A model generated the notes under the pieces. It made no database searches. It was not told where the DNA came from and saw only the letters and a list, made by a program, of their open reading frames with translations. From Escherichia coli (GTDB lineage Bacteria > Pseudomonadota > Gammaproteobacteria > Enterobacterales > Enterobacteriaceae): a stretch of 64,000 nt of DNA. This document shows positions 26,388-30,575 of the stretch, piece after piece. The first letter of the stretch is position 1, and every line of letters begins with the position of its first letter. The stretch is from the NCBI RefSeq assembly GCF_050920415.1, contig NZ_CP169309.1; one strand, written 5' to 3'. The position numbers and the translations under genes are program-made.

Positions 26388-28043
26388 ATGACGAATCTTC
26401 CCCACTGGTGGCAAAACGGCGTTATCTACCAGATTTATCCCAAGAGTTTTCAGGACACCACGGGCAGCGGCACCGGCGATTTACGTGGCGTTATCCAACG
26501 CCTGGACTATCTGCATAAACTGGGCGTCGATGCTATCTGGCTAACCCCCTTTTATGTCTCTCCCCAGGTCGATAACGGATACGACGTAGCGAACTATACG
26601 GCGATAGATCCCACTTACGGTACGCTGGACGATTTTGACGAAATGGTGACGCAGGCGAAATCGCGCGGCATTCGTATCATTCTCGATATGGTGTTTAATC
26701 ATACTTCTACCCAACATGCCTGGTTTCGTGAGGCGCTGAGCAAAGAAAGCCCTTACCGCCAGTTTTATATCTGGCGCGATGGTGAACCAGAAACGCCACC
26801 GAATAACTGGCGTTCAAAATTTGGCGGTAGTGCGTGGCGCTGGCATGCGGAAAGCGAACAGTACTATTTGCATCTCTTTGCACCAGAACAGGCGGATCTC
26901 AACTGGGAGAATTCGGCGGTACGCGCCGAGCTGAAAAAAGTCTGTGAGTTCTGGGCCGATCGCGGGGTCGACGGGTTACGCCTGGATGTAGTGAATTTGA
27001 TCTCTAAAGATCTGCGTTTTCCTAATGACCTGGATGGCGATGGGCGTCGCTTCTACACCGACGGGCCACGAGCACACGAGTTTTTGCATGAGATGAACCG
27101 CGATGTGTTTACGCCTCGCGGTTTAATGACCGTGGGTGAAATGTCCTCCACCAGCCTTGAGCATTGCCAGCGATACGCGGCACTAACAGGCAGTGAATTG
27201 TCGATGACCTTTAATTTTCATCACCTGAAGGTCGATTATCCCGGTGGTGAAAAATGGACGCTGGCTAAACCTGACTTTGTGGGGTTGAAAGCATTGTTCC
27301 GCCACTGGCAACAAGGAATGCACAACGTGGCATGGAATGCCTTGTTCTGGTGTAACCACGATCAGCCGCGCATTGTTTCTCGTTTTGGTGATGAAGGGGA
27401 CTACCGCGAACCTGCGGCAAAAATGCTGGCGATGGTGCTGCATGGCATGCAGGGAACGCCATATATCTATCAGGGCGAAGAGATTGGCATGACTAACCCA
27501 CATTTCACGCGCATTACTGACTATCGCGACGTGGAGAGCCTCAATATGTTTGCCGAACTGCGCAACGATGGGCGTGACGCCGAGGAGTTATTGGCAATCC
27601 TCGCCAGTAAATCCCGTGACAATAGTCGCACGCCAATGCAATGGAGCAACGGCGATAATGCCGGGTTTACAACGGGTGAACCGTGGATTGGCCTGGGCGA
27701 TAACTATCAAGAAATCAACGTAGAAGCCGCGCTGGCCGATGAGTCCTCGGTGTTTTACACCTACCAAAAGTTAATCGCACTGCGTAAGCAAGAAGCCGTC
27801 CTGACATGGGGCAATTACCAGGATCTGCTGCCAGACAGCCCTGTATTGTGGTGCTATCGCCGTGAATGGAAGGGGCAAACCTTGCTGGTCATTGCCAACC
27901 TTAGCCGTGAGACCCAACCCTGGCAGCCAGGGCAAATGCGCGGCAACTGGCAGTTGCTGGTGCATAACTACGAAGAAGCCTCAGCACAACCCTGTGCCAT
28001 GACTTTACGGCCTTTTGAGGCCGTCTGGTGGTTACAGAAGTAA
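26388..28043 (+). CDS. treC: Trehalose-6-phosphate hydrolase
   Basis: 551-aa ORF from ATG at 26388 (MTNLPHWWQNGVIYQIYPKSF), GH13 alpha-amylase family. Confidence 0.95.
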   Translation: MTNLPHWWQNGVIYQIYPKSFQDTTGSGTGDLRGVIQRLDYLHKLGVDAIWLTPFYVSPQVDNGYDVANYTAIDPTYGTLDDFDEMVTQAKSRGIRIILDMVFNHTSTQHAWFREALSKESPYRQFYIWRDGEPETPPNNWRSKFGGSAWRWHAESEQYYLHLFAPEQADLNWENSAVRAELKKVCEFWADRGVDGLRLDVVNLISKDLRFPNDLDGDGRRFYTDGPRAHEFLHEMNRDVFTPRGLMTVGEMSSTSLEHCQRYAALTGSELSMTFNFHHLKVDYPGGEKWTLAKPDFVGLKALFRHWQQGMHNVAWNALFWCNHDQPRIVSRFGDEGDYREPAAKMLAMVLHGMQGTPYIYQGEEIGMTNPHFTRITDYRDVESLNMFAELRNDGRDAEELLAILASKSRDNSRTPMQWSNGDNAGFTTGEPWIGLGDNYQEINVEAALADESSVFYTYQKLIALRKQEAVLTWGNYQDLLPDSPVLWCYRREWKGQTLLVIANLSRETQPWQPGQMRGNWQLLVHNYEEASAQPCAMTLRPFEAVWWLQK

Positions 28044-28187
28044 GTATCCGCTAAGCCCCGGTAATACTGGTCATTCCGGGGTTTTGCCTTTCAGCATGTT
28101 GTTTTTGTTGATTTTATAATCAAAAAATTCATTAAAAAATTTACATAACGCTGTAGCGCCCGTCATCCGTACGCTCTGCTTTTTACT

Positions 28188-28232
28188 TTGAGCTACATCA
28201 AAAAAAGTTCAAACATCCTTGATGCAAAGCAC
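28188..28232 (+). promoter_or_regulatory. Putative tandem FNR sites in nrdDG promoter
   Basis: TTGAGctacATCAA (28188-28201) and TTGATgcaaAGCAC (28219-28232), centres exactly 31 bp apart; TAAAAT -10-like hexamer at 28246-28251. Confidence 0.5.
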
Positions 28233-28436
28233 TATATATAGACTTTAAAATGCGTCCCGACCCAATATGTTGTATTAATCGACTATAATTGCTACTACAA
28301 CTCCCCACGAAAAAGGTGCGGCGTTGTGGATAAGCGGATGGCGATTGCGGAAAGCGCCGGAAAACGAAACGAAAAAACCGGAAAACACCTTTCCCAATTT
28401 CTGTGGATAACCTGTTCTTAAAAATATGGAGCGATC

Positions 28437-30575
28437 ATGACACCGCATGTGATGAAACGAGACGGCTGCAAAGTGCCGTTTAAATCAGAGCGCATCAAAG
28501 AAGCGATTCTGCGTGCAGCTAAAGCAGCGGAAGTCGATGATGCAGATTATTGCGCCACTGTTGCCGCGGTTGTCAGCGAGCAGATGCAGGGCCGCAGCCA
28601 GGTGGATATCAACGAGATCCAGACCGCCGTTGAAAACCAGCTGATGTCGGGTCCATACAAACAACTGGCTCGTGCTTACATCGAGTACCGTCACGATCGC
28701 GACATTGAACGTGAAAAACGCGGTCGCCTGAATCAGGAGATCCGTGGTCTGGTCGAGCAGACCAACGCCTCGTTGCTCAACGAAAACGCCAACAAAGACA
28801 GCAAGGTGATTCCAACCCAGCGCGACCTGCTGGCCGGGATTGTGGCTAAACACTATGCACGTCAGCACCTGCTGCCGCGTGACGTGGTGCAGGCGCATGA
28901 GCGTGGCGATATTCACTATCACGATCTCGATTACTCGCCGTTCTTCCCGATGTTCAACTGCATGTTGATCGACCTGAAAGGTATGCTGACCCAGGGCTTT
29001 AAGATGGGGAACGCCGAGATTGAACCACCGAAGTCGATCTCTACGGCAACCGCGGTAACTGCGCAGATTATTGCTCAGGTCGCCAGTCATATTTATGGCG
29101 GCACCACCATTAACCGTATCGATGAAGTGCTGGCACCGTTTGTCACCGCCAGCTACAACAAACACCGCAAGACCGCAGAAGAGTGGAATATCCCGGACGC
29201 CGAAGGTTACGCTAACTCTCGTACCATCAAAGAGTGCTACGATGCCTTCCAGTCGCTGGAGTACGAAGTAAACACCCTGCACACCGCCAACGGTCAAACA
29301 CCGTTTGTGACCTTTGGTTTTGGTCTGGGCACCAGCTGGGAGTCTCGCCTGATTCAGGAGTCTATCCTGCGTAACCGTATCGCGGGCCTCGGTAAAAACC
29401 GCAAAACTGCGGTGTTCCCGAAACTGGTGTTTGCGATTCGCGATGGCCTGAACCATAAAAAAGGCGATCCGAACTACGACATCAAACAGCTGGCGCTGGA
29501 GTGCGCAAGCAAGCGCATGTATCCGGATATCCTGAACTACGATCAGGTAGTGAAAGTCACCGGTTCGTTTAAAACCCCGATGGGCTGCCGTAGCTTCCTC
29601 GGCGTGTGGGAAAATGAAAACGGCGAACAGATCCACGATGGTCGTAACAACCTCGGCGTGATCAGCCTGAACCTGCCGCGCATTGCTCTGGAAGCGAAAG
29701 GCGATGAAGCCACCTTCTGGAAGCTGCTGGATGAACGTCTGGTGCTGGCACGTAAGGCGCTGATGACCCGTATCGCTCGTCTCGAAGGCGTTAAAGCGCG
29801 CGTGGCCCCGATCCTCTATATGGAAGGTGCTTGTGGCGTTCGTCTGAATGCTGACGACGACGTTTCTGAAATCTTCAAAAACGGTCGTGCGTCTATTTCG
29901 CTGGGTTACATCGGCATCCACGAAACCATTAACGCGCTGTTTGGCGGCGAGCATGTGTATGACAACGAGCAGCTGCGCGCGAAAGGTATCGCCATTGTTG
30001 AACGTCTGCGTCAGGCGGTGGATCAGTGGAAAGAAGAAACGGGTTACGGTTTTAGCCTTTACAGCACGCCAAGTGAAAACCTGTGCGACCGCTTCTGCCG
30101 TCTCGATACCGCAGAGTTTGGCGTGGTGCCGGGCGTGACTGATAAAGGTTACTACACCAACAGTTTCCACCTCGATGTGGAGAAGAAGGTGAACCCGTAC
30201 GACAAGATCGACTTTGAAGCGCCTTACCCGCCGCTGGCGAACGGTGGCTTCATTTGCTACGGCGAATATCCAAACATTCAGCACAACCTGAAGGCGCTGG
30301 AAGATGTCTGGGATTACAGCTATCAGCATGTACCGTATTACGGCACCAATACGCCGATTGATGAGTGTTACGAGTGTGGTTTTACCGGTGAGTTTGAGTG
30401 CACCAGTAAAGGCTTCACCTGCCCGAAATGCGGTAACCATGACGCCTCCCGTGTGTCGGTGACTCGCCGCGTGTGCGGATATTTAGGTAGCCCGGATGCG
30501 CGTCCGTTTAACGCTGGTAAGCAGGAAGAAGTTAAGCGCCGCGTTAAACATTTGGGAAATGGGCAGATCGGTTAA
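28437..30575 (+). CDS. nrdD: Anaerobic ribonucleoside-triphosphate reductase
   Basis: 712-aa ORF with C-terminal glycyl-radical region and Zn-binding cysteines (CYECGFTGEFECTSKGFTCPKCGNHD). Confidence 0.97.
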   Translation: MTPHVMKRDGCKVPFKSERIKEAILRAAKAAEVDDADYCATVAAVVSEQMQGRSQVDINEIQTAVENQLMSGPYKQLARAYIEYRHDRDIEREKRGRLNQEIRGLVEQTNASLLNENANKDSKVIPTQRDLLAGIVAKHYARQHLLPRDVVQAHERGDIHYHDLDYSPFFPMFNCMLIDLKGMLTQGFKMGNAEIEPPKSISTATAVTAQIIAQVASHIYGGTTINRIDEVLAPFVTASYNKHRKTAEEWNIPDAEGYANSRTIKECYDAFQSLEYEVNTLHTANGQTPFVTFGFGLGTSWESRLIQESILRNRIAGLGKNRKTAVFPKLVFAIRDGLNHKKGDPNYDIKQLALECASKRMYPDILNYDQVVKVTGSFKTPMGCRSFLGVWENENGEQIHDGRNNLGVISLNLPRIALEAKGDEATFWKLLDERLVLARKALMTRIARLEGVKARVAPILYMEGACGVRLNADDDVSEIFKNGRASISLGYIGIHETINALFGGEHVYDNEQLRAKGIAIVERLRQAVDQWKEETGYGFSLYSTPSENLCDRFCRLDTAEFGVVPGVTDKGYYTNSFHLDVEKKVNPYDKIDFEAPYPPLANGGFICYGEYPNIQHNLKALEDVWDYSYQHVPYYGTNTPIDECYECGFTGEFECTSKGFTCPKCGNHDASRVSVTRRVCGYLGSPDARPFNAGKQEEVKRRVKHLGNGQIG

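What the first reader, a model, noticed from the sequence alone, without database searches (positions are those of the whole stretch)
28044..28436. Long nrdD upstream region with two FNR-like half-palindromes spaced 31 bp
TTGAGctacATCAA and TTGATgcaaAGCAC have centres exactly 31 bp apart, followed by a TAAAAT hexamer. This matches the dual FNR-site architecture reported for anaerobic nrdDG activation. The remaining ~180-bp leader is unusually long and purine-rich, and could carry extra regulation.
Basis: partly seen in the sequence, partly recalled or inferred. Interest (0 to 1): 0.2.

Follow-up and report, generated by a model that had tools for sequence, protein, structure and literature searches.

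The report
Known nrdDG promoter: FNR, NrdR, DnaA
This is the well-studied control region of the E. coli anaerobic ribonucleotide reductase operon nrdDG, with its two published FNR activator sites, and the "extra regulation" suspected in the long leader is two DnaA-binding sites that others have already mapped.

Summary
TTGAGctacATCAA (28188-28201) and TTGATgcaaAGCAC (28219-28232) have centres 31 bp apart and are followed by TAAAAT (28246-28251). The window is E. coli, and 28044-28436 is the whole treC-nrdD intergenic region.

These are the published FNR-2 (-64.5) and FNR-1 (-33.5) sites of the nrdDG promoter. They are identical to the oligonucleotide used in FNR binding work. The published FNR ChIP-seq summit and a top-scoring PWM hit both fall on FNR-2.

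They bracket the -10 and the start site, and box 1 overlaps FNR-1.

The 178-nt leader does carry extra regulation. It holds the only two perfect DnaA boxes in the 64-kb window (28325-28333 and 28402-28410; the second has a weak partner at 28413-28421). A published DnaA ChIP-seq peak (62-fold) lies between them.

In 80 Enterobacterales nrdD loci, the 31-bp FNR pair is kept in 62 of 67 Enterobacteriaceae-like loci. Two perfect DnaA boxes are kept in 58 of 67, and in 11 of 13 loci from other families, where they have inverted geometry. The rest of the leader is unconserved, and its purine richness is specific to E. coli.

No riboswitch-like RNA was found. Verdict: real, correctly interpreted and already known.

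The parts
28050..28087 (+). Probable intrinsic terminator of treBC: a GC stem (GCCCCGG / CCGGGGU) followed by TTTT at 28082-28085.
   Evidence: Fold gives -17.8 kcal/mol, z -2.3. It lies 7 nt after the treC stop. The simple terminator scan missed it, probably because of its long loop (my reading).
28188..28201 (.). FNR-2 site TTGAGctacATCAA, centred at -64.5. This is the high-affinity site, reported as necessary and sufficient for activation.
   Evidence: Identical to the published oligo. Myers PWM hit at 4460919 (.2 coordinates) and ChIP summit. A site is kept at this position in nearly all Enterobacteriaceae.
28202..28218 (.). Spacer between the FNR sites: an A-tract plus a conserved CAAACAT (28210-28216).
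   Evidence: Conservation profile of 63 distinct sequences. A role as an alpha-CTD or flank contact is inference only.
28219..28232 (.). FNR-1 site TTGATgcaaAGCAC, centred at -33.5. This is the weaker auxiliary site. Most other genera have the better match TTGATgcaaATCAC.
   Evidence: Published as site 1.
28229..28245 (.). NrdR box 1 (GCACTATATATAGACTT). It overlaps the right half of FNR-1.
   Evidence: Matches the 57-mer that binds NrdR-ATP/dATP with a KD of about 160 nM (PMC12176259). Conserved. The overlap with FNR is noted for Salmonella.
28246..28251 (+). -10 hexamer TAAAAT of the FNR-dependent promoter. There is no usable -35.
   Evidence: TTA(A/G)AAT is conserved across genera. No sigma-70 two-hexamer match was found, as expected for an activator-dependent promoter.
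28259..28259 (+). Transcription start, inferred from the published -33.5/-64.5 positions. It is G here and A in K-12.
   Evidence: Arithmetic. The start was not mapped here.
28260..28276 (.). NrdR box 2 (ACCCAATATGTTGTATT), 31 bp from box 1. The -10 and the start site lie in the 15-bp linker between the boxes.
28284..28289 (+). TATAAT at +26 to +31. It is conserved as CTAYnnT. It may be a second promoter or a sigma-70 pause element; this is unresolved.
   Evidence: There is no -35 match. No start-site data could be retrieved.
28325..28333 (-). DnaA box A: perfect TTATCCACA on the minus strand, at +67 to +75. It is a single box with no recognisable partner.
   Evidence: One of only 2 perfect boxes in 64 kb. 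Invariant in 58 of 67 Enterobacteriaceae-like loci. The ChIP-seq peak lies 25 bp downstream.
28334..28401 (+). Spacer between the DnaA boxes. Its sequence is free but its length is fixed at 67-70 nt. In E. coli it contains the purine-rich stretch and a predicted helix, 28343-28354 with 28389-28399.
   Evidence: The structure is inconclusive.
28402..28421 (-). Double DnaA box B. The strong box is at 28402-28410 (+144 to +152), followed by a 2-bp spacer and the weak box TTAAGAACA at 28413-28421.
   Evidence: It is the reverse complement of the 'double DnaA box' listed for nrdD in PMC11317965 Table 1. The block TCTGTGGATAACCTGTT is almost invariant.
28428..28439 (+). Shine-Dalgarno GGAG (28428-28431) and the nrdD ATG (28437-28439).

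Best explanation
The interval is the complete regulatory region of the E. coli class III (anaerobic) ribonucleotide reductase operon nrdDG. Three DNA-binding regulators share it.

(1) FNR. Under anoxia, [4Fe-4S]-FNR dimers bind FNR-2 (-64.5) and FNR-1 (-33.5) on the same face of the helix, 31 bp apart. They activate a promoter that has a -10 (TAAAAT) but no -35. Site 2 is essential, and site 1 boosts expression only when site 2 is filled (published).

(2) NrdR. [quoted passage not shown] These bracket the -10 and the start site, and box 1 overlaps FNR-1. NrdR therefore represses when dNTPs are plentiful. Binding is published. Occlusion of the promoter and competition with FNR are inferred.

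(3) DnaA. DnaA occupies the transcribed leader at a single perfect box (+67) and a double box (+144), the latter just upstream of the ribosome-binding site. This ties nrdDG output to replication-initiator status. Occupancy is published. My inference is that bound DnaA, probably DnaA-ATP, lowers expression by blocking elongating RNA polymerase.

The remaining leader sequence, including the purine-rich stretch, is spacer. Only its length is constrained.
For: Identity of the locus: 5425 of 5426 complete E. coli genomes carry the region, in the gene order treR-treB-treC | nrdD-nrdG. It differs from K-12 at 20 of 411 positions. Only 5 of these lie in the promoter plus leader, and none lies in a motif.

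FNR: the published 54-mer matches, and the site positions are published. The ChIP-seq summit and PWM hit fall on FNR-2, and expression drops in fnr-. The 31-bp pair is conserved in 62 of 67 loci.

NrdR: the published 57-mer with measured KD matches, and the boxes are conserved.

DnaA: the two perfect boxes are the only ones in the window, against 0.4 expected. The whole E. coli genome has 32 perfect boxes, and the 62-fold ChIP peak at 4462739 maps to about 28358, between the boxes. Two perfect boxes 76-79 bp apart occur in 58 of 67 Enterobacteriaceae-like loci and in 11 of 13 loci from other families. The flanks hold 1 perfect box in 285 kb. The boxes are the only conserved islands in an otherwise free leader. 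The module is kept whether or not treC lies upstream.

Against: The start site was not mapped here, and genome-wide start-site tables could not be retrieved. The positions -33.5 and -64.5 therefore rest on citations of Roca et al. 2008, which I could not read.

How FNR at -33.5 and -64.5 contacts RNA polymerase is called 'a remaining mystery' by PMC10425943.

No experiment shows that DnaA changes nrdDG transcription through these boxes. NrdD and NrdG also rise when DnaAcos is induced. That rise may be indirect via dNTP depletion and NrdR, and it clouds the sign of the DnaA effect.

Box A has no partner box, and the Wade-lab data suggest single boxes are often unbound.
Confidence: 0.85

Rival explanations
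1. The long leader encodes a cis-acting RNA element (riboswitch, attenuator or protein-binding stem-loop) that controls nrdD after initiation. The spacer between the DnaA boxes folds into a long hairpin (E. coli: 28343-28354 with 28389-28399).
For: Spacer length is fixed at 67-70 nt while the sequence drifts. Per-sequence folds often close the spacer into one hairpin, with mean z of -0.81. Pairing between the 5' and 3' arms exceeds shuffles, with mean z of +1.64. Other families have a GC hairpin between their two boxes. There is one apparent compensatory change: GGAAAG/CTTTCC in E. coli against GGGAAG/CTTCCC elsewhere.
Against: There is no Rfam match even at E<=1. The E. coli leader folds with z of only -1.13. 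RNAalifold over 24 genera gives -0.71 kcal/mol and no covarying pair. In the fixed-column count, 53% of cells pair, against 48% in shuffles and 39-48% when partners are slid. One of five control segments reached z of +1.25 on the same test. Cognate arms beat non-cognate arms only weakly, at rank 0.33 against a null of 0.5.
Confidence: 0.12
2. A second, FNR-independent promoter lies inside the 'leader'. Its -10 is TATAAT at 28284-28289, with a start near 28296. NrdR box 2 sits over its -35 region. Part of nrdDG mRNA would then have a leader of about 140 nt, and aerobic expression would come from this promoter.
For: There is a perfect TATAAT in E. coli. CTAYnnT and a following CAACAA are conserved across genera, although they lie beyond NrdR box 2. 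NrdD and NrdG are reported to be induced in aerobic cultures of replication mutants.
Against: No -35-like hexamer is present, and the promoter scan finds nothing. No start-site evidence could be obtained. The element could equally be a sigma-70 pause signal or an extension of the NrdR footprint.
Confidence: 0.2
3. The DnaA boxes do not regulate nrdDG. They serve DnaA itself, for example as titration sites or some other chromosome-level reservoir, and merely reside in this intergenic region.
For: DnaA is titrated by chromosomal boxes (PMC12371093). No direct transcriptional test exists for nrdD.
Against: The boxes travel with nrdD across the order Enterobacterales, whatever gene lies upstream. 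They are always inside the transcribed leader, next to the NrdR boxes or the SD. According to that paper, nrdD is outside the oriC-proximal region of high box density. The other RNR operon, nrdAB, is an accepted DnaA target.
Confidence: 0.1
4. The FNR-like sites are chance matches with no function.
For: Within the window such matches are as frequent as in shuffled sequence (41 against 34 +/- 5.8), and other close pairs exist.
Against: There is published binding, ChIP-seq occupancy and fnr-dependent expression. Spacing of exactly 31 bp is kept in 62 of 67 loci.
Confidence: 0.01

Closest known systems
E. coli K-12 nrdDG promoter (Boston & Atlung 2003; Roca et al. 2008; NrdR boxes of Torrents et al. 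2007; DnaA ChIP-seq of Stringer, Fitzgerald & Wade 2024)
   Same: It is the same locus. All motifs (FNR-2, FNR-1, both NrdR boxes, -10, both DnaA boxes, SD) are identical.
   Different: There are five single-base differences in the promoter plus leader: 28208, 28259 (the start-site base, G instead of A), 28300, 28356 and 28387. Fifteen more lie upstream in the terminator and AT-rich part.
E. coli nrdAB (class Ia RNR) promoter
   Same: It is also controlled by NrdR boxes and by a double DnaA box with a perfect TTATCCACA.
   Different: The nrdAB DnaA boxes are upstream promoter elements (my knowledge). Here both DnaA sites lie in the transcribed leader at +67 and +144. nrdAB has no FNR sites in E. 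coli.
Tandem-FNR promoters such as yfiD (an upstream plus a promoter-proximal FNR site)
   Same: Two FNR dimers occupy one promoter and tune the oxygen response.
   Different: In the class II type the proximal site is near -41.5 (my knowledge). Here the sites are at -33.5 and -64.5, and the distal site is the essential one.
DnaA boxes inside transcription units acting as elongation blocks (the asnC/mioC and guaB reports of the Messer laboratory; recalled from memory, not read here)
   Same: A perfect 9-mer sits downstream of a start site.
   Different: No roadblock has been shown for nrdD. The guaB box was not bound in the 2024 ChIP-seq, whereas the nrdD leader was bound 62-fold.

Membership tests
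FNR-activated nrdDG promoter (dual FNR sites) | Two TTGAT-N4-ATCAA-like sites with centres 31 bp apart upstream of nrdD | tested here: met
   Sites at 28188-28201 and 28219-28232. The pair is conserved in 62 of 67 loci.
FNR-activated nrdDG promoter (dual FNR sites) | Sites centred at -64.5 and -33.5 from the mapped start | not testable with these tools
   The positions are taken from papers citing Roca 2008. They are consistent with the conserved -10 at 28246-28251. The start-site tables were cut when stored.
FNR-activated nrdDG promoter (dual FNR sites) | FNR occupancy in vivo and FNR-dependent expression | not testable with these tools
   From the literature on K-12, whose sites are identical: a ChIP-seq peak in all data sets, and nrdD/nrdG at 0.36/0.27 in fnr-.
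NrdR operator | Two 16-bp NrdR boxes separated by about 15 bp (31-32 bp period) at an RNR promoter | tested here: met
   GCACTATATATAGACT and ACCCAATATGTTGTAT lie 31 bp apart. They match the NrdR-binding 57-mer except for one linker base.
DnaA regulon site (double DnaA box) | A consensus TTATCCACA with a second, weaker box 2-3 bp away in the same orientation | tested here: met
   Box B: 28402-28410, a 2-bp spacer, then TTAAGAACA (6 of 9 matches) at 28413-28421. Box A has no such partner.
DnaA regulon site (double DnaA box) | DnaA occupancy in vivo | not testable with these tools
   From the literature: a 62-fold ChIP-seq peak at 4462739, which maps to about window 28358.
DnaA regulon site (double DnaA box) | DnaA-dependent change in transcription of the adjacent gene | not tested
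   Only indirect proteome data are available.
cis-regulatory leader RNA (riboswitch, attenuator) | A match to a curated RNA family | tested here: not met
   No Rfam match at E<=1.
cis-regulatory leader RNA (riboswitch, attenuator) | A conserved secondary structure supported by covariation | tested here: inconclusive
   z of -1.13. No consensus structure. Weak and mixed signals.

The most novel reading that the evidence does not exclude
The nrdD leader may be a conserved DnaA-operated gate. Two perfect DnaA boxes sit at a fixed distance: 76-79 bp apart in the same orientation in Enterobacteriaceae, and 49-57 bp apart in opposite orientations in Yersinia, Serratia, Hafnia, Edwardsiella and Dickeya. 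They flank a spacer of free sequence that tends to fold into one hairpin. Box A would be a second, undescribed DnaA site. DnaA and the hairpin would act together on elongating polymerase. A second promoter at 28284-28289 may add an FNR-independent route. None of this geometry appears in the papers I could read.
Probability: 0.25. Interest if true: 0.35.

Novelty: already known. Interest (0 to 1): 0.1.

Why it matters
The region shows how one promoter combines three signals to set anaerobic dNTP supply: oxygen (FNR), the dNTP pool (NrdR) and replication-initiator status (DnaA). All three inputs are already in the literature, so the finding adds no new biology.

The comparative data gathered here add a modest point. 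DnaA boxes in the nrdD leader are as deeply conserved as the FNR and NrdR sites across Enterobacterales, and their spacing is fixed. This supports DnaA control of the anaerobic reductase as an old, selected feature rather than an E. coli quirk.

Tried and rejected
(1) Rfam scan of 27900-28600 at E<=1 found nothing.

(2) The simple sigma-70 scan found no promoter, which fits an activator-dependent promoter. It also missed the treBC terminator, which folding then showed.

(3) The perfect-arm palindrome TTGATtttataATCAA at 28108-28123 was considered as a third FNR-like site. It has N6 spacing, not N4, and is absent from K-12 (TTGATTTTTCAACCAG). It was rejected as strain-specific chance.

(4) I tested whether purine richness marks a functional element. 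It is not conserved.

(5) I tested for a conserved leader RNA structure. RNAalifold was negative. Further tests gave weak, mixed results and one control segment behaved similarly, so this is left as inconclusive.

(6) I tested the idea that 77 bp = 7 x 11 bp reflects an oriC-like array of low-affinity DnaA sites. Per-offset matching to the box consensus shows no 11-bp periodicity, so the idea was rejected.

(7) I looked for a partner box next to DnaA box A. There is none, only a semi-conserved GGG(C/T)C.

(8) Retrieving genome-wide start sites from the supplements of PMC4782308 and PMC3415461 failed because the files are cut. Boston & Atlung 2003, Torrents 2007 and Cendra 2013 are not held.

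(9) PurR-, NarL- and third-NrdR-box readings of the conserved blocks were checked by eye and did not fit.

Full report
**What the window is**

The 393-bp interval 28044-28436 is found in 5425 of 5426 complete E. coli genomes. One strain matches at 100%, and most match at 95-99%. In the annotated match the gene order is treR-treB-treC, then the interval, then nrdD-nrdG, followed by cybC and pmbA on the other strand. The interval runs from the base after the treC stop (28041-28043) to the base before the nrdD ATG (28437).

Against K-12 MG1655 it differs at 20 of 411 aligned positions. Fifteen of these lie upstream of 28150. Only five fall in the promoter and leader (28208, 28259, 28300, 28356, 28387), and none touches a motif described below.

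**Checking the observation**

- TTGAGCTACATCAA occupies 28188-28201 and TTGATGCAAAGCAC occupies 28219-28232.
- Their centres (28194.5 and 28225.5) are 31 bp apart.
- TAAAAT is at 28246-28251.

Motif counting does not make the sites remarkable. The window has 41 matches to TTGAT-N4-ATCAA with up to 2 mismatches, against 34 +/- 5.8 in shuffles, and other close pairs exist. The case rests on independent evidence.

- The 54-mer used to study FNR binding to the nrdDG promoter is identical to 28184-28237 except for one spacer base. That paper gives the sites as -33.5 (site 1) and -64.5 (site 2), citing Roca et al. 2008. It reports that site 2 binds more tightly and is necessary and sufficient, and that site 1 adds only when site 2 is filled.
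- Myers et al. 2013 list the PWM hit TTGATGTAGCTCAA at 4460919, scored 15.68. This is the reverse complement of FNR-2.
- The same study reports a ChIP-seq peak present in all data sets, with its summit at 4460925. It also reports nrdD and nrdG at 0.36 and 0.27 of wild type in an fnr mutant.
- Taking that listed hit as the same 14-bp site as FNR-2 (28188-28201) places the summit at about 28195, on FNR-2. The offset of 1977 bp that this implies between the two genome versions equals their length difference as I recall it (my knowledge).

With FNR-1 at -33.5 the start is 28259 and the leader is 178 nt. This agrees with the position of the -10.

Two NrdR boxes lie at about 28229-28245 and 28260-28276, 31 bp apart. 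They match the 57-mer that binds E. coli NrdR loaded with ATP plus dATP (KD about 160 nM) or ADP plus dATP, except for one linker base at 28259. Box 1 overlaps the right half of FNR-1. The 15-bp linker between the boxes contains the -10 and the start site. Occlusion of RNA polymerase and competition with FNR at site 1 are the natural reading. This is inference, though the overlap is discussed for Salmonella in PMC2892513.

**The leader**

The only two perfect DnaA boxes in the 64-kb window (TGTGGATAA on the plus strand) are at 28325-28333 and 28402-28410, against 0.4 expected per window. Stringer, Fitzgerald and Wade (2024) report 32 perfect boxes in the whole genome. They also report a DnaA ChIP-seq peak upstream of nrdD with 62-fold enrichment at 4462739. 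Their associated 'double DnaA box', tTTAAGAACAggTTATCCACAg, is the reverse complement of 28401-28422.

Their coordinates fit genome version .3 (nrdD ATG at 4462660), which puts the peak at about 28358, between the two boxes. They note that DnaA sites upstream of nrdD had been predicted earlier.

So the leader does carry extra regulation, and that regulation is already described. Proteome papers report more NrdD in a DARS2 deletion (which the paper groups among mutations lowering the DnaA-ATP fraction) and more NrdD and NrdG at very low DnaAcos levels. NrdD and NrdG also rise on DnaAcos induction. I read this as repression by DnaA, with an indirect dNTP/NrdR effect on hyper-replication. This is inferred, not shown.

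**Comparative test**

One scan of species-representative genomes with the first 300 residues of NrdD returned 80 Enterobacterales loci.

| Feature | Enterobacteriaceae-like loci (n = 67) | Other families (n = 13) |
|---|---|---|
| FNR-like pair exactly 31 bp apart | 62 | 0 (usually a single FNR-like site) |
| Two perfect DnaA boxes within 300 bp upstream of nrdD | 58 | 11 |
| Box spacing | 76-79 bp | 49-57 bp |
| Box orientation | same | opposite |

The 'other families' are Edwardsiella, Hafnia, Limnobaculum, Yersinia, Dickeya and Serratia. In these, the upstream box is a double box that directly abuts NrdR box 2. Outside these 300-bp regions the same loci contain one perfect box in 285 kb.

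A conservation profile of 63 distinct sequences gives three results:
- The core from 28181 to 28276 is almost invariant.
- The leader is essentially free except for two islands, TTGTGGATAA (28323-28333) and TCTGTGGATAACCTGTT (28400-28416), plus the SD.
- The module is kept whether or not treC is the upstream gene (43 of 80 loci).

E. coli has a better FNR-2 and a poorer FNR-1 than most genera, which carry TTGTTctgaATCAA and TTGATgcaaATCAC.

**Is the leader an RNA element?**

Purine richness is real only for the core 28300-28392 (64.5%, top 0.8% of windows). The whole leader is 56% purine. The richness is not conserved, with a mean of 52.7% in 58 spacers.

The evidence against an RNA element is as follows.
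- Rfam gives no hit at E<=1.
- The E. coli leader folds with z of only -1.13.
- RNAalifold over 24 genera gives -0.71 kcal/mol and no covarying pair.

The spacer length is nevertheless fixed at 67-70 nt, and single-sequence folds often close it into one long hairpin. In E. coli this pairs 28343-28354 with 28389-28399. Mean z is -0.81. Further tests were mixed.
- An alignment-free test of pairing between the 5' and 3' arms gave a mean z of +1.64. One of five control segments reached +1.25.
- A fixed-column pair count was barely above controls: 53% paired, against 48% in shuffles and 39-48% with slid partners.
- Cognate arms beat non-cognate arms only modestly, at rank 0.33 against a null of 0.5.

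I leave this as inconclusive. The idea that 77 bp = 7 x 11 bp hides an oriC-like array of weak DnaA sites was tested and found no periodic signal.

**Loose ends**

- TATAAT at 28284-28289 (+26 to +31) is conserved as CTAYnnT and is followed by a conserved CAACAA. It has no -35. It could be a second promoter whose -35 region is covered by NrdR box 2, a sigma-70 pause element, or part of the NrdR footprint.
- A GCCCG-centred block near -100 (28157-28163) is conserved without explanation.
- The treBC terminator hairpin is at 28050-28087.

**Verdict**

Everything central to it is already published: the dual FNR sites, the NrdR boxes and DnaA occupancy of the leader. What is new here is limited to comparative detail: the depth of conservation, the fixed spacing of the DnaA boxes and their inverted layout outside Enterobacteriaceae. 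Interest is low.

Noticed in passing
window 28284-28300: A perfect TATAAT lies at +26 to +31 of the nrdDG transcript. It is conserved across genera as CTAYnnT and is followed by a conserved CAACAA. It may be a second promoter, with NrdR box 2 over its -35 region, or a sigma-70 pause element.
   Followed up: partly
window 28334-28401; loci L004-L070: The spacer between the two DnaA boxes keeps its length (67-70 nt) while its sequence drifts to about 45% identity. It tends to fold into one long hairpin. The tests for a conserved RNA helix were mixed.
   Followed up: yes
L071-L083 (Edwardsiella, Hafnia, Limnobaculum, Yersinia, Dickeya, Serratia), about -130 to -30 from the nrdD start: The leader layout differs here. 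NrdR box 2 is followed directly by a double DnaA box (TTATCCACA-nn(n)-nCATCCACA). Next comes a GC-rich hairpin whose stem sequence differs between families, and then an inverted perfect box TGTGGATAA.
   Followed up: partly
L061 and L063 (Pseudescherichia), upstream of nrdD: The leader is about 103 bp shorter (FNR-like sites at -137 and -106 from the ATG). It lacks DnaA box A and keeps at most a 1-mismatch box B. L065-L067 lack DnaA boxes altogether.
   Followed up: no
window 28157-28163 (about -100 from the start): A GCCCG-centred block is conserved in most Enterobacteriaceae, including loci where treC is not the upstream gene. No known binding motif was recognised.
   Followed up: no
window 28108-28123: TTGATtttataATCAA is a 16-bp palindrome with FNR-like arms but N6 spacing. 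It is absent from K-12 (TTGATTTTTCAACCAG), so it is probably a chance feature of this strain.
   Followed up: yes
window 28357-28365 and 28378-28386: CCGGAAAAC occurs as a direct repeat, 21 bp apart, inside the purine-rich stretch. Among the aligned spacers it was seen only in this window and in E. albertii, so it may be a duplication remnant.
   Followed up: no
window 28259: The base at the inferred transcription start is G in this strain and A in K-12. It is also the single difference from the published NrdR-binding oligonucleotide.
   Followed up: no
window 28485-30440, minus strand: A 651-aa ATG-started ORF runs antisense through almost all of nrdD. It is probably a shadow ORF of the coding frame and was not examined.
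   Followed up: no
window 28188-28232 compared with L008-L070: E. coli has a near-consensus FNR-2 and a degenerate FNR-1 (AGCAC). Most other genera show the reverse, with FNR-2 as TTGTT/TTGTC...ATCAA and FNR-1 as TTGATgcaaATCAC. The relative strength of the two sites appears to have shifted.
   Followed up: partly
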